Numbered from the stretch's first letter, positions 58,990-62,439 are shown. The stretch is 64,000 bases of DNA from Bacteroidales bacterium (GCA_017550525.1 JAFZOU010000011.1:42719-106718); one strand, 5' to 3'. Notes: generated from the sequence alone by a model not told the origin. Numbers and translations: made by a program.

Positions 58990-60511
58990 CGGAAGTTCAT
59001 CACGTAGAGGTCTCCGTCAGACTGTTGACTGGTGGATCATAATCGTATACCTTGCCCTTGTAGTAATAGGCTGGGTGAACATCTATGCCGCCACGCATAC
59101 CGCCGGGGCCGGTTCAATGCTGGACTGGGGTTCCCGCGCGGGTAAACAGTTTGTGTGGATACTCACATCCTTCGGCCTAGCTGCGCTTATCCTCTGGGTG
59201 CTGCCGCCGCAACTGTGGGAGGGCGGCGCGCCGGTGTTCTACGCCTTTGTGCTGGGGCTTCTGGTGCTGGTGATATTCGTTTCATCAGACGTGAAGGGCT
59301 CCCATTCCTGGTTTGACCTTGGGCCCATCCGCTTCCAGCCGGCTGAGATATCAAAGATAACTACGTCGCTGCTGCTGTCGCTTGTCATGAGCCAGCAGTG
59401 GTTCAAGATGGGGCGGCCCAGGGACTTTCTCATCGCTGCGGCAATTATCGGCCTTCCCATGCTTGTGATTGTGGCGGAAAGCGAGACCGGCAGCGCCCTG
59501 GTGTACGCCGGATTCATCTTTGTGCTTTACAGGGAGGGCCTTTCCGGATGGTGGCTGGCGGCTATCGGCCTTATTGTCCTTCTGTTTGTGGGGACGCTTA
59601 CCGCGGGGGCCTACACCACGCTTCTAATAATGATTGGGATACTGGTTCTTAGCTGTACGCTCAGTGAGCCGTCCCGCCTTAAGAACAGGCTTCTGATCGG
59701 CGGCGGATTTGTACTCCTGATGGCACTGTTCCCTCTTCTTCTTGGATGGGTGGGAGACCTTGTGCAGGGAGAGATGGACAAGCTGGCGCTTCGCCCCTGG
59801 GTGCCTCAGGCCGATGAAACGGAAGACTATTTCTGGGGCTTCATCCTGAAGATCAAGCCCGTGTGGGTGCTCATTGGCCTATCTTTTGCCGCGCTGCCGC
59901 TCCTTCTCTGGCATGCGTATAAGATCAAGGACAAGTTCCTGGCGCTCTGCTGCGGAGTGTTCATCGCAGGTGTAGTGATGGTTTTCTCCACTGACTTTGT
60001 GTTCCAGAACGTGCTGCAGCCGCACCAGAGGGGAAGGATAGAGGTGCTCCTGGGGCTTAAGGAAGACCTTGCCGGAGTTGGCTACAACGTGAACCAGAGT
60101 AAGATTGCAATTGGTTCCGGCGGGCTCCTTGGAAAAGGATTCCTGAAGGGTACTCAAACAACTTTTGGCTTTGTTCCGGAGCAATCCACGGACTTTATCT
60201 TCTGCACCGTGGGAGAGGAGTGGGGCTTCCTTGGATGCCTCATAGTGATAAGTCTTTATGTGTGGCTCATTGCAAGGCTCATCATAGATGCTGAGCGCTG
60301 CCGGGGCAAGTTCACCCGCATCTACGGATACTGCGTTGCAGCCTGCATCTTTATGCACCTTTTCATAAATGTGGGTATGACAGTAGGGCTTATGCCGGTT
60401 ATCGGCATCCCTCTTCCGCTGCTAAGTTACGGAGGGTCTTCCCTCTGGGCATTCACTATACTGATATTCATCTTTTTGGCACTTTACAGAAATGAGAAAA
60501 AATACTTCTAA
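58982..60511 (+). CDS. rodA: rod shape-determining protein RodA (SEDS family peptidoglycan polymerase)
   Basis: The FtsW/RodA/SpoVE motifs are present (QPAEISKITT, PEQSTDFIF, GLMPVIGIPLPLLSYGGSS). At 509 aa it is longer than proteobacterial RodA, because of a central insertion. Confidence 0.9.
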   Translation: MIDGSSSRRGLRQTVDWWIIIVYLALVVIGWVNIYAATHTAGAGSMLDWGSRAGKQFVWILTSFGLAALILWVLPPQLWEGGAPVFYAFVLGLLVLVIFVSSDVKGSHSWFDLGPIRFQPAEISKITTSLLLSLVMSQQWFKMGRPRDFLIAAAIIGLPMLVIVAESETGSALVYAGFIFVLYREGLSGWWLAAIGLIVLLFVGTLTAGAYTTLLIMIGILVLSCTLSEPSRLKNRLLIGGGFVLLMALFPLLLGWVGDLVQGEMDKLALRPWVPQADETEDYFWGFILKIKPVWVLIGLSFAALPLLLWHAYKIKDKFLALCCGVFIAGVVMVFSTDFVFQNVLQPHQRGRIEVLLGLKEDLAGVGYNVNQSKIAIGSGGLLGKGFLKGTQTTFGFVPEQSTDFIFCTVGEEWGFLGCLIVISLYVWLIARLIIDAERCRGKFTRIYGYCVAACIFMHLFINVGMTVGLMPVIGIPLPLLSYGGSSLWAFTILIFIFLALYRNEKKYF

Positions 60512-61346
60512 ACCGCTCAGGATCCTTGTTACCGGAGCCAGCAGCGGAATTGGCTATGACGCCGCTGCTGAGCTTGCCCGCCTTGGTCACACCGTCTTTG
60601 CCGCCGCCCGCCGCGTGGCCCTAATGGAGCCTTTGAAGGAGTTCGGCGTCACCCCCGTGGCGCTGGATGTCACCTCCGAGGACTCCCTGAAAGCCTGTAT
60701 GGAGGTGGTGGGAGACCTTGACGTTCTTGTGAACAACGCCGGATACGGATACTTCGGCCCCATTGAGACGGTTCCTATGGAGGATGCCCGCCGGCAACTG
60801 GAGGTAAACCTCTTCGGCCTTGCACGCCTTTGCCAGATGGTCCTTCCCGGAATGCGCGCCAAGGGTTCCGGACGCATTGTGAACATCGGCTCCGTTGCCG
60901 GCAAGGCCGTACTGAACTTCGGCGGATGGTACAACGTGTCAAAGTTTGCCGTGGAGGCCTTCTCCGACGCCCTCCGTATGGAAATGAAGCCATTTGGCGT
61001 AAAGGTAGTGCTCATCGAGCCCGGTTCCATCAAGACCGGCTGGGGAGACATTGCGGCCGATCACCTTGCAGAGTGCACCCGGGGTACAGCATATGAGGAG
61101 GCCGGCGCCCGCGAAGCCGCAGCAATGCACAAGGTGTATTCACTGAGCGTGCTATCGGCCCCGTCCGTAGTCACCCGCTGCATAGTGCGCGCCGTCCTTA
61201 CCCGCCGCCCCCGCACCCGCTACCGCCCGGGCCTCGGCGCCTCCAACATAGTGTTCTGGCACGCCGTGCTCCCGGACCGCTGGTGGGACGCCATCAACCG
61301 CCAGCTGGCCAGCCCCCGCGTGGGAAAGATTGCCGCAAAGCTGTAG
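60492..61346 (+). CDS. short-chain dehydrogenase/reductase (SDR) family oxidoreductase
   Basis: The TGASSGIG cofactor motif, NNAG and the catalytic Y..SK (YNVSKFAVEAF) are present. Confidence 0.9.
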   Translation: MRKNTSKPLRILVTGASSGIGYDAAAELARLGHTVFAAARRVALMEPLKEFGVTPVALDVTSEDSLKACMEVVGDLDVLVNNAGYGYFGPIETVPMEDARRQLEVNLFGLARLCQMVLPGMRAKGSGRIVNIGSVAGKAVLNFGGWYNVSKFAVEAFSDALRMEMKPFGVKVVLIEPGSIKTGWGDIAADHLAECTRGTAYEEAGAREAAAMHKVYSLSVLSAPSVVTRCIVRAVLTRRPRTRYRPGLGASNIVFWHAVLPDRWWDAINRQLASPRVGKIAAKL

Positions 61347-61439
61347 GGTCAGACTTCCTCATCCTCGGGTGCACCTGCAAGTGCACCCGACTTTGCGTAA
61401 TCCGCCGACTTTCACCCACTTACGCGCCAGGCTCATTTA

Positions 61440-61584
61440 GGCCGATTGCCGTGTTGACAGCCAAACCACCTTCTACGGCCACTTTCATTGCCGACACGGC
61501 AACAAAATCGGCCTTTTCCCCGGAAAACGCAGCCATGTTGACACTAAAAACCCAATTCTGAGCCATCTAACCGTCAACACGGCC
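61440..61584 (+). repeat. REP/MITE-like structured intergenic repeat, divergent copy D
   Basis: GGCCGATTGCCGTGTTGAC ... CCGACACGGCAACAAAATCGGCCTTTT ... GCCATGTTGAC ... GTCAACACGGC. It has the same module order and orientation as copies A to C, but more substitutions. Confidence 0.75.
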
Positions 61585-61613
61585 AGCGCTATGGATAATT
61601 CCATTTTATTTAC

Positions 61614-61621
61614 TATCTTTG
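61614..61621 (+). promoter_or_regulatory. -7 promoter box TAtcTTTG upstream of tRNA-Leu
   Basis: TATCTTTG lies 14 nt upstream of the tRNA 5' end. I saw no clear -33 TTTG. Confidence 0.45.
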
Positions 61622-61635
61622 CAGTCCCACATTTT

Positions 61636-61933
61636 GCCTTGGTGGTGGAATGGTAGACACGAGGGACTTAGACACAATTGAGTGCTCTCTCTGAAAAGAG
61701 AGATGCAGAATGCCGTAAATTCAAGGAAACCATAACGGGTAACGCCGATGGCAATCTTGAGCCAAGCCTTTGAGAGAAGGAAGGTGCAGAGACTAGACAC
61801 GGCACACCTAAAGAGCATAGCTCCAAGGTGAAGGAATAGTCCAGACCACAAACAGAAATGGTGGCGAAAGCCATAGTGGTAAGAAAATCCCTTGGCCCGA
61901 AACGGCCGTGCGGGTTCGATTCCCGCCCGAGGC
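61636..61933 (+). tRNA. tRNA-Leu (anticodon UAA), split by a group I intron (exons 61636-61669 and 61883-61933)
   Basis: The joined exons give an 85-nt class II tRNA. Its parts are acceptor GCCTTGG/CCGAGGC (one G-U), D arm GTG-GAATGGTAGA-CAC, anticodon stem AGGGA/TCCCT, loop CTTAAAA, a long variable arm (GGCC..GGCC), T arm GCGGG-TTCGATT-CCCGC and discriminator A. Confidence 0.9.
61670..61882 (+). ncRNA. group I self-splicing intron (IC3-like), 213 nt, no internal ORF
   Basis: It is inserted between U34 and A35. P1 pairs ACTT with GAGT (61680-61683), giving U-G at the splice site. Also present are P2 CTCTCT-GAAA-AGAGAG, P3 TGCCG/CGGCA, the core string GGAAGGTGCAGAGACTAGAC, P7 GACTA/TAGTC, P8 CACCT..AGGTG, P9 TGGC-GAAA-GCCA and a terminal G at 61882. 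Confidence 0.85.
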
Positions 61934-61935
61934 AC

Positions 61936-61964
61936 TAAGGATGTCATTCTATGGCATCCTTTTT
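61936..61964 (+). terminator. rho-independent terminator after tRNA-Leu
   Basis: AAGGATG (61936-61942) pairs with CATCCTT (61954-61960), followed by TTT. Confidence 0.6.
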
Positions 61965-62100
61965 CTGTTAAATGCGCCATAGAGTATCTTATAATGGCAT
62001 TTTGGTGAAGACATAAAAAGGCACCGAAAGCATTATAAAGACGAAAATGTTTCCCTAAAATTGGGAAACCATTCTTATCTTTGCAACGGAGGATAACATT

Positions 62101-62439
62101 ATGGCTACACGGAAAAGAATCACAAAAGCACCAACAGATAATCCAGAAGATATTGTTCGGAAACAACGTAGGAAGTAAATTTCCTTTAATCTGGAGGTTC
62201 GAGACGCAAATAAACACGGCACTTTCCCGATATACTTACGTGTTACTGAGGACAGGATTCATCGGCGATATAAATCCTCTATTGAGCTTGCTAGAAGAAT
62301 TGACTGGAACACCTACTCCCAAGATATTGGGCCCACAACCGTTGAAACCTACAAGGAACGCATCAAAGACAAGTTTGGCCTGGACACAGTCATCCAATGT
62401 GTAGCCGCAGCCGTAGCCAAAGGCATTGTGAGCGTATAG
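62101..62439 (+). pseudogene. remnant of a Bacteroidota tyrosine integrase (N-terminal arm-type DNA-binding domain only; in-frame TAA; catalytic domain missing)
   Basis: A TAtcTTTG box lies at 62076-62083. Frame 1 reads MATRKRITKAPTDNPEDIVRKQRRK, then TAA (62176-62178). It continues in the same frame as ISFNLEVRDANKHGTFPIYLRVTEDRIHRRYKSSIELARRIDWN..., ending at TAG 62437-62439. The second part resembles the conserved N-terminal domain of Bacteroides integrases. It lies about 170 nt 3' of a tRNA gene. Confidence 0.5.

What the first reader, a model, noticed from the sequence alone, without database searches (positions are those of the whole stretch)
61636..61933. tRNA-Leu(UAA) gene interrupted by an ORF-less group I intron at the classic U34/A35 site
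**Exons.** Exon 1 (61636-61669) ends ...AGGGACTT and exon 2 (61883-61933) begins AAAATCCCT.... Joined, they give a canonical 85-nt class II tRNA-Leu with anticodon loop CUUAAAA (anticodon UAA).

**Intron.** The 213 nt between the exons show the hallmarks of a group I ribozyme:
- The 5' splice site follows a U that can form the U-G pair of P1 (ACTT with GAGT at 61680-61683).
- P2 and P9 hairpins are capped by GAAA tetraloops.
- P3 is TGCCG/CGGCA, P7 is GACTA/TAGTC and P8 is CACCT..AGGTG.
- The intron ends in G (61882).
- The strings TCAAGGAAACC, GGCAATCTTGAGCCAAGCC and GGAAGGTGCAGAGACTAGAC..CACCTAAAG closely resemble, from memory, the catalytic core of the Azoarcus tRNA-Ile and Anabaena tRNA-Leu IC3 introns.

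**Why it matters.** The insertion site is the one known for the cyanobacterial/plastid tRNA-Leu(UAA) intron, yet the host here is Bacteroidota-like. The element has no homing endonuclease. Gene callers would easily miss it: the ORF track shows only a spurious 203-aa antisense ORF across it. If this is the only tRNA-Leu(UAA) copy, splicing would be essential for decoding UUA/UUG. I cannot tell from the sequence alone whether this lineage's intron has been described.
Basis: partly seen in the sequence, partly recalled or inferred. Interest (0 to 1): 0.85.

Follow-up and report, generated by a model that had tools for sequence, protein, structure and literature searches.

The report
Self-splicing intron inside a leucine tRNA
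A gut-type Bacteroidales bacterium carries its tRNA-Leu(UAA) gene split by a small, well-conserved group I self-splicing intron; this is real, but it is one ordinary member of a large family found in many bacterial phyla and phages that standard annotation mostly misses.

Summary
Exon 1 is 61636-61669, the intron is 61670-61883 (214 nt, ending in G at 61883) and exon 2 is 61884-61934. Joined in silico, the exons give an 85-nt class II tRNA-Leu(UAA). ARAGORN finds the gene only when introns are allowed. Rfam RF00028 scores 54.6 bits (threshold 50, E 4e-11).

All proposed helices are present. P2, P3, P4, P5a, P6, P8 and P9 show compensatory changes in 21 Bacteroidota and 118 cross-phylum homologues. 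The L2 and L9 GAAA loops, the U·G at the 5' splice site and the P7 strands are invariant.

The gene has its own Bacteroidota promoter box and a terminator, and lies downstream of mreC-PBP2-rodA. That linkage is conserved in relatives with and without the intron.

One capped scan found the same-site intron in at least 120 GTDB species (Alphaproteobacteria, Acidobacteriota, Beta- and Gammaproteobacteria, 21 Bacteroidota). A second scan found it in 94 viral contigs.

Verdict: a functional homing-endonuclease-less IC3-type intron, a new member of a known kind. I found no published description for Bacteroidota. Splicing is inferred, not shown.

The parts
61614..61621 (+). Bacteroidota-type -7 promoter box TATCTTTG (consensus TAnnTTTG), 14 nt upstream of the tRNA 5' end
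   Evidence: Sequence. A TA(T/C)(C/A)TTTG box lies within 50 nt upstream in 13 of 14 Bacteroidales copies, window included. The consensus itself is from established knowledge of Bacteroides promoters. The sigma-70 scan found no + strand promoter here.
61636..61669 (+). Exon 1 of tRNA-Leu(UAA): acceptor 5' strand, D arm, anticodon stem 5' strand, C32 U33 U34
   Evidence: ARAGORN with intron detection and on the spliced sequence. Acceptor, D and anticodon stems are 96-100% paired across 118 homologues with compensatory changes.
61670..61883 (+). Group I intron, 214 nt, no ORF, ends in omega-G at 61883
   Evidence: RF00028 scores 54.6 bits, E 4.1e-11, over 61660-61864. ARAGORN reports i(35,214). 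Stop codons occur in all three + frames.
61666..61683 (+). P1: ACTTAG (61666-61671) paired with internal guide TTGAGT (61678-61683); U34 (61669)·G (61680) wobble at the 5' splice site
   Evidence: The U·G pair is present in 118/118 homologues although the guide strand was not part of the search pattern. P1 is 96.7% paired.
61684..61706 (+). P2 hairpin with GAAA tetraloop L2 (61693-61696)
   Evidence: 5 of 9 pairs change on both sides among 21 Bacteroidota, and the GAAA loop is invariant there. The helix is 91% paired in 118 sequences.
61711..61715 (+). P3 5' strand TGCCG (pairs with 61800-61804 CGGCA)
   Evidence: 100% paired in 118 sequences, with 3-6 pair types at every position. 3 of 5 pairs change on both sides in Bacteroidota.
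61721..61760 (+). P4 (61721-26 with 61755-60), J4/5 AAA, and P5-P5a (61730-61751), which has a tetraloop-receptor-like CCWUAAC/GAUGG internal loop
   Evidence: P4 is 99% paired, with AU to GC double changes at two positions. The middle pair of P5a (61737/61746) switches G-C to A-U in Bacteroidales. The receptor role is inferred by analogy with Azoarcus, from memory.
61761..61785 (+). P6-P6a
   Evidence: P6 is 100% and P6a 96% paired in 118 sequences, with compensatory changes.
61789..61795 (+). P7 5' strand GAGACTA (guanosine-binding helix; pairs with 61837-61842 TAGTCC; A at 61790 bulged)
   Evidence: The helix is invariant in all 118 sequences. The 5' strand was fixed by the search pattern, the 3' strand was not. 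It forms a pseudoknot with P3, as in all group I introns.
61800..61804 (+). P3 3' strand CGGCA
   Evidence: See the P3 5' strand entry.
61805..61830 (+). P8 (CACC/GGTG outer stem, receptor-like CCUAAAG/CAAGG internal loop, inner hairpin GAGC-ATA-GCTC)
   Evidence: The outer stem is 99.8% paired in 118 sequences, with AU to GC, CG to GC and CG to UA changes. All three inner-hairpin pairs change on both sides in Bacteroidota.
61837..61842 (+). P7 3' strand TAGTCC, preceded by J8/7 AAGGAA (61831-61836)
   Evidence: Identical in 118/118.
61846..61879 (+). P9 (CCAC/GTGG outer stem, inner hairpin with GAAA tetraloop L9 at 61866-61869)
   Evidence: Compensatory C-G to U-A changes occur in both stems and the GAAA loop is invariant among 21 Bacteroidota. 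The stems are 92-93% paired in 118 sequences.
61884..61934 (+). Exon 2 of tRNA-Leu(UAA): A35 A36, anticodon stem 3' strand, long variable arm, T arm, acceptor 3' strand, discriminator A; CCA not encoded
   Evidence: The variable and T stems are 99-100% paired with compensatory changes.
61937..61966 (+). Intrinsic-terminator-like hairpin followed by a T run
   Evidence: 11-pair stem, then TTTCTGTT. Comparable hairpin plus T-run sequences follow the gene in many relatives.

Best explanation
This is a functional, chromosomal tRNA-Leu(UAA) gene of an uncultured gut or rumen-type Bacteroidales bacterium. It is interrupted between U34 and A35 by a 214-nt IC3-type group I intron with no homing endonuclease.

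**Proposed mechanism**
1. The gene is transcribed from its own Bacteroidota promoter box to the terminator at 61937-61966.
2. The intron folds into the P1-P9 core. P3 and P7 form the pseudoknot, and the L2 and L9 GAAA loops dock on receptor-like loops in P8 and P5.
3. A free guanosine bound in P7 attacks the phosphodiester after U34, which lies in the U·G pair of P1.
4. The terminal G (61883) then occupies the same site, and the 3'-OH of U34 attacks after it. This joins the exons and releases the intron.
5. RNase P, 3' trimming and CCA addition give the 85-nt tRNA that reads the rare UUA and UUG codons.

**Shown:** gene anatomy, ribozyme secondary structure under purifying selection, conserved chromosomal context.

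**Inferred:** transcription, the splicing chemistry, autonomy from proteins, and that this is the working tRNA-Leu(UAA) gene of the genome.

**History:** the intron has most likely been inherited vertically within this Bacteroidales clade and lost precisely in some lineages.
For: **The element is a group I intron in a tRNA-Leu(UAA) gene**
- RF00028 gives 54.6 bits against a threshold of 50, E 4.1e-11.
- ARAGORN calls tRNA-Leu(taa) i(35,214), and the spliced product is a canonical tRNA-Leu.

**Covariation supports the structure**
- In 21 Bacteroidota, 96.9% of cells pair, against 35-42% when partners are slid. 33 pairs change on both sides, and 0 of 500 shuffles reach the observed values.
- In 118 sequences from several phyla, P3 and P6 are 100% paired, P4 99% and P8 99.8%, all with multiple pair types. 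The guide G opposite U34 is 118/118.

**Purifying selection**
- The tRNA plus intron is 83-94% identical to 14 Bacteroidales species. The adjacent protein-coding DNA is only 65-72% identical.
- The exon stems also covary, so the tRNA is under selection and must be spliced.

**Expression signals and context**
- A promoter box is conserved in 13 of 14 copies, and a terminator follows the gene.
- The gene sits in the housekeeping context mreC-PBP2-rodA-SDR, syntenic in L206, L175, L133, L160 and L135.
- Intronless alleles occupy the same rodA-linked locus in L387, L418, L355 and L401, so this is the orthologue of the ordinary gene.
- UUA and UUG codons are used (39 and 53 of about 1,937 Leu codons).

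**Descent**
- In a neighbour-joining tree built on intron columns only, Bacteroidales plus the window form a pure clade of 14, and all 21 Bacteroidota form a pure clade.
Against: - There are no RNA data, so splicing is inferred.
- The RF00028 score is only 4.6 bits above threshold.
- P7 and P1 cannot show covariation in my sample. The pattern fixed the P7 5' strand, the splice-site U and the terminal G.
- P10 is at most 2 bp in the window.
- The P8 receptor-like loop reads CAAGG where most relatives have (C/T)ATGG. This could weaken the L2 docking.
- I could not check the rest of the genome for a second, intronless tRNA-Leu(UAA).
- Intronless relatives L418 and L387 (PBP2 71% identical) are closer to the window than intron-bearing L160, L175 and L133 (64-66%). 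Presence is therefore patchy, and several gains cannot be excluded.
Confidence: 0.85

Rival explanations
1. The intron is genuine but needs a host protein (a chaperone or maturase-like factor) to splice in the cell, so it is not autonomous.
For: The Bartonella paper, citing the Hausner review, says some group I introns need protein cofactors in vitro and that all are presumed to need them to some extent in vivo (PMC7717549). P10 is very short, and the window's P8 receptor-like loop deviates from most relatives.
Against: The core, both GAAA tetraloops and their receptor-like loops are all present and conserved. Small IC3 tRNA introns (Azoarcus, Anabaena; from memory) and the alphaproteobacterial tRNA-Arg intron (PMC7717549) self-splice in vitro. 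No intron-encoded or adjacent candidate factor is present.
Confidence: 0.15
2. The locus is a decaying pseudogene: an inactivated intron has killed this tRNA copy and another gene supplies tRNA-Leu(UAA).
For: The rest of the genome could not be inspected. Intronless alleles with the same 30-nt junction sequence are abundant in metagenomes.
Against: Intron and exons are far better conserved than the flanking genes (83-94% against 65-72%), with compensatory changes in both ribozyme and tRNA helices. Promoter box and terminator are retained. The intronless alleles that could be placed sit at the same rodA-linked locus in other organisms, not at a second locus.
Confidence: 0.04
3. The intron, or the whole intron-bearing gene, was acquired recently by horizontal transfer, for example from a phage tRNA array, rather than inherited.
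For: The same kind of intron-bearing tRNA-Leu(UAA) occurs in phage tRNA arrays and on plasmids. Presence is patchy among close relatives. Alpha-, Gammaproteobacteria and Acidobacteriota are intermixed in the intron tree.
Against: There is no homing endonuclease. The locus is conserved and syntenic across species whose flanking genes have diverged to 65-72% nucleotide identity. The Bacteroidales introns form a clade, and the copy with the closest flanking genes (L206) is also among the closest introns. The best viral match is only 74.7% identical.
Confidence: 0.1
4. The intron is kept because it does something for the host. It might gate the supply of a rare-codon tRNA through guanosine- or Mg2+-dependent splicing, or protect the anticodon-loop DNA or RNA from integrases or anticodon nucleases.
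For: It has been retained for a long time without an endonuclease, in several phyla. The tRNA serves rare codons.
Against: There is no direct evidence. Precise loss appears to be tolerated in close relatives, which fits a neutral or slightly costly passenger.
Confidence: 0.05

Closest known systems
Cyanobacterial and plastid tRNA-Leu(UAA) (trnL) group I intron, e.g. Anabaena PCC 7120 (IC3)
   Same: Same host gene and same insertion point between U34 and A35. This is established knowledge; PMC4476775, seen, describes the gene and its distribution. It has the same compact architecture without an ORF, the same AAUUGAG guide sequence and the shared core strings GGCAAUCYUGAGCCAAGCC and GGAAGGUGCAGAGACU (alignment to a recalled sequence).
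   Different: The host is Bacteroidales, not cyanobacteria or plastids. P7 reads GACUAGAC rather than GACUCGAC. P6 is short, and the intron is 214 nt against about 249 nt. Core identity to the recalled Anabaena sequence is only about 74%, no higher than to other IC3 introns, so orthology is not established.
Azoarcus sp. BH72 tRNA-Ile(CAU) intron (IC3; crystal structure 1U6B, from memory)
   Same: Both are about 200 nt. Both have P2 and P9 capped by GAAA, receptor-type loops in P8 and P5, an identical AGAGACUAGAC...GGCA P7/P3 strand, and a similar J8/7 and P7 3' strand (recalled sequence).
   Different: The host tRNA and exon context differ. Core identity is about 71%. Azoarcus is GC-rich, whereas this intron is 47% GC.
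Alphaproteobacterial tRNA-Arg(CCU) intron (Agrobacterium; BbgpI of Bartonella bacilliformis, PMC7717549)
   Same: A small bacterial group I intron in a tRNA anticodon loop, with the host tRNA gene left unannotated by standard tools. It was shown to splice in vivo and to self-splice in vitro.
   Different: The tRNA and insertion site differ. It was not compared at sequence level here.
[quoted passage not shown]
   Same: It is a precedent for the trnL-site intron outside cyanobacteria.
   Different: The phylum differs. I could not retrieve its sequence, so similarity is untested.

Membership tests
Group I intron (Rfam RF00028) | Covariance-model score at or above the curated gathering threshold | tested here: met
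   54.6 bits against 50, E 4.1e-11, full model 1-253. Only 8 of 14 Bacteroidales homologues and none of 6 Chitinophagales-type ones pass, so the family sits at the threshold.
Group I intron (Rfam RF00028) | P1 with a U·G wobble at the 5' splice site and an intron-terminal G | tested here: met
   U34 (61669)·G (61680) and a terminal G at 61883. The guide G is 118/118 in homologues.
Group I intron (Rfam RF00028) | Conserved core helices P3-P8 with the P3/P7 pseudoknot and the P4-P6 domain | tested here: met
   All helices are present in the window. P3, P4, P6 and P8 are 99-100% paired with compensatory changes. P7 is invariant, which says nothing for or against the pairing.
Group I intron (Rfam RF00028) | Guanosine-dependent two-step self-splicing | not testable with these tools
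   Needs in vitro transcription with GTP, or RNA data.
IC3 subgroup (small bacterial and plastid tRNA introns) | Compact core with P2 and P9 but no P5abc, P2.1 or P7.1/7.2 extensions; inserted in a tRNA anticodon loop | tested here: met
   The 214 nt are fully accounted for by P1-P9. Insertion is in the anticodon loop. PMC11835236 notes that P5(a-d) is absent from IC3.
IC3 subgroup (small bacterial and plastid tRNA introns) | L2 and L9 GNRA tetraloops with receptors in P8 and P5 | tested here: inconclusive
   The GAAA loops are invariant. The internal loops CCUAAAG/CAAGG (P8) and CCAUAAC/GAUGG (P5) resemble the 11-nt receptor CCUAAG/UAUGG (recalled), but they are not identical and docking cannot be tested.
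IC3 subgroup (small bacterial and plastid tRNA introns) | Best score with a subgroup-specific covariance model | not testable with these tools
   Only the general RF00028 model is on hand. The subgroup models of Nawrocki 2018 or Selles Vidal 2025 are not.
trnL (tRNA-Leu UAA) intron lineage of cyanobacteria and plastids | Host gene tRNA-Leu(UAA) and insertion between U34 and A35 | tested here: met
   and the same in 118 of 120 homologous loci (the other two are cut by contig ends).
trnL (tRNA-Leu UAA) intron lineage of cyanobacteria and plastids | Closer in sequence or phylogeny to cyanobacterial trnL introns than to IC3 introns of other tRNAs | tested here: inconclusive
   Core identity is 73.6% to recalled Anabaena and 70.6% to recalled Azoarcus. 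The references are recalled sequences, and no real cyanobacterial set could be fetched.
Class II tRNA-Leu | Cloverleaf with a long variable arm, UAA anticodon and discriminator A73 | tested here: met
   ARAGORN on the spliced sequence. All five stems are 96-100% paired in homologues.
Mobile group I intron with a homing endonuclease | Intron-encoded endonuclease ORF | tested here: not met
   Stop codons occur in all three + frames of the 214 nt. The antisense ORF has no Pfam match.

The most novel reading that the evidence does not exclude
The U34/A35 tRNA-Leu(UAA) intron is not a cyanobacterial and plastid speciality. It is a largely undescribed, pan-bacterial family found in Alphaproteobacteria, Acidobacteriota, Beta- and Gammaproteobacteria and Bacteroidota, and also carried in phage tRNA arrays and on plasmids. 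It persists vertically without an endonuclease, is lost precisely in some lineages, and is systematically missed by annotation. If so, the 'ancient cyanobacterial intron' story and many apparent gaps in bacterial tRNA sets need revisiting, with phage tRNA islands as a plausible vehicle of spread.
Probability: 0.4. Interest if true: 0.6.

Novelty: new member of a known kind. Interest (0 to 1): 0.4.

Why it matters
**For this genome.** A real tRNA gene, the decoder of UUA, is invisible to default tRNA finders. In public assemblies of the same locus a spurious 203-aa antisense ORF is called in its place. Any tRNA census or codon-capacity inference for this organism would be wrong.

**For the field.**
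- The single instance is unremarkable. The scans it prompted show that the classic trnL-site intron occurs in at least 120 non-cyanobacterial species representatives and in 94 viral contigs.
- About half of the close homologues fall below Rfam's threshold.
- In Bacteroidales the intron has stayed at one syntenic locus while neighbouring genes diverged strongly, and sister lineages are intronless.
- This gives a usable natural system for studying how a group I intron without a homing endonuclease persists and is lost. It also bears on the long debate over whether the tRNA-Leu intron is ancient or laterally spread.

Tried and rejected
- **Default ARAGORN and the sigma-70 scan.** ARAGORN finds no tRNA here; intron mode was needed. 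The sigma-70 promoter scan found nothing on the + strand, which is expected for a Bacteroidota promoter.
- **Core-only DNA pattern.** This motif is generic to many phage group I introns, so I added the exon ends before using the single genome scan.
- **Antisense 203-aa ORF and other flank ORFs.** The antisense ORF has no Pfam family and overlies a conserved structured RNA. I rejected it as a gene.
- **Homing endonuclease.** None is present.
- **Literature.** Six full-text searches for group I introns in tRNA genes of Bacteroidota, Bacteroidales or other non-cyanobacterial hosts found no description. The 2002 gamma-proteobacterium paper and the Paquin and Rudi J Bacteriol papers are not held, so they are cited from memory only.
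- **Recalled reference sequences.** Comparison with recalled Anabaena and Azoarcus sequences could not tell which known intron is closer (about 71-74% for both). I treat it as a lead only.
- **Covariance model.** I did not build one. The MAFFT alignment with a hand-specified structure already gave clear counts, and a 300-position model would probably exceed the calibration limit.
- **Sole copy.** I could not test whether this is the only tRNA-Leu(UAA) gene.

Full report
**1. The observation**

- Exon 1 is 61636-61669 and ends GGGACTT.
- The 3' boundary is off by one. The G that ends the intron is at 61883, so the intron is 61670-61883 (214 nt) and exon 2 is 61884-61934.
- Joining 61636-61669 to 61884-61934 gives an 85-nt sequence that ARAGORN calls tRNA-Leu(taa), with a long variable arm and discriminator A.
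- On the unspliced DNA, default ARAGORN finds nothing at this locus. With intron detection it reports tRNA-Leu(taa) i(35,214).
- Rfam's Intron_gpI model matches 61660-61864 over its full length at 54.6 bits (threshold 50, E 4.1e-11).
- The precursor folds to -105 kcal/mol, z = -4.36 against 200 shuffles. The minimum-energy structure recovers the tRNA acceptor, D, variable and T stems and P2, P3, P4, P5, P6a, P8 and P9.

**2. Anatomy**

In window coordinates:

| Element | Coordinates | Sequence or note |
|---|---|---|
| P1 | 61666-71 with 61678-83 | ACTTAG with TTGAGT; U34·G at the splice site |
| P2 | 61684-61706 | L2 GAAA at 61693-96 |
| P3 | 61711-15 with 61800-04 | TGCCG with CGGCA |
| P4 | 61721-26 with 61755-60 | |
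| P5-P5a | 61730-51 | |
| P6-P6a | 61761-85 | |
| P7 | 61789-95 with 61837-42 | GAGACTA with TAGTCC; crosses P3 as the usual pseudoknot |
| P8 | 61805-30 | |
| P9 | 61846-79 | L9 GAAA at 61866-69 |
| Terminal G | 61883 | |

- Every proposed pair is a standard pair.
- All three + frames of the intron contain stops, so there is no endonuclease gene.
- The internal loops of P8 and P5 resemble the 11-nt GAAA receptor. That comparison is recalled, not tested.

**3. Expression signals and context**

- A TATCTTTG box matching the Bacteroidota -7 consensus TAnnTTTG (established knowledge) lies at 61614-61621. A hairpin plus T run follows the gene at 61937-61966.
- CCA is not encoded.
- Upstream lie MreC, a 169-aa ORF, PBP2, RodA and a short-chain dehydrogenase. 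This is a housekeeping cell-shape operon, not a mobile element.
- The 203-aa antisense ORF over the tRNA has no Pfam match. It is nonetheless the gene called at this position in public assemblies that carry the identical PBP2.

**4. Relatives**

- 118 of the 120 splice in silico to tRNA-Leu(UAA). The other two are cut by contig ends.
- The hosts are Alphaproteobacteria (about half), Acidobacteriota, Burkholderiales and other Betaproteobacteria, Gammaproteobacteria, and 21 Bacteroidota.
- The closest relatives are 14 rumen, hindgut or human-gut Bacteroidales MAGs at 82-94% identity over the whole precursor. Seven Chitinophagales-type sequences follow at about 70-72%.

*Viral scan.* The same pattern found 94 IMG/VR contigs, of which 90 are complete and all splice to tRNA-Leu(UAA).

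*GenBank phage and PLSDB plasmid searches.* Unannotated near-full-length matches occur in two records of a 735-kb uncultured phage and in Bradyrhizobium plasmids.

**5. Structure under selection**

*21 Bacteroidota sequences.* My structure gives 96.9% paired cells, against 35-42% when the 3' partners are slid by 1-3 columns. 33 pairs change on both sides, and no shuffle of 500 reaches the observed covariation.

*118 sequences (MAFFT in script).*
- P3 and P6 are 100% paired, P4 99%, P8 99.8%, and P9 and P9a 92-93%, each with several pair types per position.
- The tRNA stems covary as well.
- P7 never varies. Its 5' strand was fixed by the search pattern, but its 3' strand and the guide G opposite U34 were not, and both are 118/118.

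*Conservation relative to flanks.* Against the Bacteroidales relatives the tRNA-plus-intron segment is 83-94% identical. The neighbouring PBP2 and rodA DNA is 65-72% identical. This is the signature of a functional RNA, not a decaying insertion.

**6. History**

- Five intron-bearing relatives keep the PBP2-rodA linkage to the tRNA, with 0-3 kb of variable DNA between rodA and the tRNA.
- In a neighbour-joining tree of intron columns only, the window plus Bacteroidales form a pure clade of 14, the other Bacteroidota a pure clade of 7, and the two together a pure clade of 21. Alphaproteobacteria, Acidobacteriota and Gammaproteobacteria are intermixed. The tree rests on about 200 columns and is of low resolution.
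- Four of those contigs carry the intronless gene at the same rodA-linked locus (L387, L418, L355, L401). Two of them (PBP2 about 71% identical to the window) are closer to the window than three intron-bearing relatives (64-66%).
- The simplest reading is vertical descent at one locus with occasional precise loss. Repeated gain is not excluded.
- It also follows that the window's gene is the orthologue of the ordinary tRNA-Leu(UAA) gene rather than an extra copy.
- UUA and UUG are rare but used: 39 and 53 of about 1,937 Leu codons in long open frames.

**7. Comparison with what is known**

- The architecture and insertion site are those of the IC3 tRNA introns.
- The site is the classic one of the cyanobacterial and plastid trnL intron (established knowledge; PMC4476775).
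- Reviews and surveys in the library describe bacterial tRNA group I introns only for a few tRNAs and lineages. One counts four different tRNA genes (PMC1995217). Others are PMC3984707, and tRNAscan-SE 2.0, which notes that the program was not designed to detect these introns (PMC8450103).
- The tRNA-Arg intron of Bartonella was likewise in an unannotated tRNA gene and was shown to self-splice (PMC7717549).
- From memory, a trnL-site intron in a gamma-proteobacterium was published in 2002. I could not retrieve that paper.
- None of my searches found a description for Bacteroidota or Bacteroidales.
- Identity of core columns to recalled Anabaena (73.6%) and Azoarcus (70.6%) sequences does not discriminate between them. 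Membership of the group I family and IC3-type architecture are met. Orthology with the cyanobacterial intron is open.

**8. Verdict**

The element is almost certainly a working self-splicing intron in a working tRNA gene. It is a new member of a known kind, and it is far less exceptional than supposed, because the same-site intron is common across bacterial phyla. The wider, poorly documented distribution, the phage-borne copies and the annotation gap (only 8 of 20 close homologues pass Rfam's threshold) are the more interesting by-products.

Noticed in passing
L265:6143-6429 (-); also L270:9370-9667, L305:4444-4731, L260:5360-5647, L267:7172-7464, L294:4080-4372: On IMG/VR viral contigs the intron-bearing tRNA-Leu(UAA) sits co-oriented inside dense tRNA arrays (15-25 other tRNAs within 14 kb or less). 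In L265 it lies between tRNA-Phe and tRNA-Thr. A 2014 review (PMC3984707) stated that all phage group I introns then known were in protein-coding genes. These arrays could be a vehicle for spreading the intron.
   Followed up: partly
LR756501.1:190254-190528 and LR756503.1 (735-kb uncultured phage); plasmids CP094621.1:160682-160961, NZ_CP094524.1:6509-6753 (Bradyrhizobium): Near full-length matches (85-96% of the precursor, about 70% identity) to the intron-bearing tRNA-Leu occur in two records of a huge uncultured phage and in 316-kb Bradyrhizobium plasmids. None has an annotated feature at the match (the phage records carry no annotation at all).
   Followed up: no
L238, L231, L239, L175, L190, L201, L226, L188, L200, L173, L159, L161: Rfam RF00028 at its gathering threshold misses 6 of 14 Bacteroidales and all 6 Chitinophagales-type homologues, although they align and covary with the window's intron. 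The hits that pass score only 50-58 bits. Rfam-based annotation therefore under-reports this family.
   Followed up: partly
window 61606-62217 (-); L429:7456-7839, L430:6163-6546: The 203-aa antisense ORF across the tRNA and intron is called as a gene in public metagenome assemblies that carry the identical PBP2. It has no Pfam family and overlaps a conserved structured RNA, so it is almost certainly a false gene call.
   Followed up: yes
L200:3238-3541 and flanks (MAG labelled Flavobacterium sp. R.bin.25): Its intron, the upstream terminator hairpin and a neighbouring 73-nt tRNA are almost the same as in the Chitinophagales and Sediminibacterium loci (L226, L188, L173). Intron identity within that group is about 95-99%. 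This suggests a mis-binned contig or a recent transfer.
   Followed up: no
window 60511-61636, compared with L175, L160, L206, L133, L135, L418: The spacer between rodA and the tRNA-Leu gene ranges from under 100 nt (L175, L418) to about 3 kb and holds different genes in different relatives. In the window it holds a short-chain dehydrogenase. This looks like a variable insertion spot beside a conserved tRNA.
   Followed up: partly
window 62076-62083 and 62049-62069: A second TATCTTTG promoter box lies just before an ATG at about 62102 (small ORF, no Pfam match). It is preceded by a symmetrical hairpin, GTTTCCCTAAAATTGGGAAAC, that the scan flags as terminator-like on both strands.
   Followed up: no
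window 61826 (P8 3' strand, CAAGG): The window has A where most Bacteroidota relatives have T (some C; L188 also has A), inside the receptor-like loop of P8 expected to dock the L2 GAAA loop. It might slightly weaken that tertiary contact.
   Followed up: no
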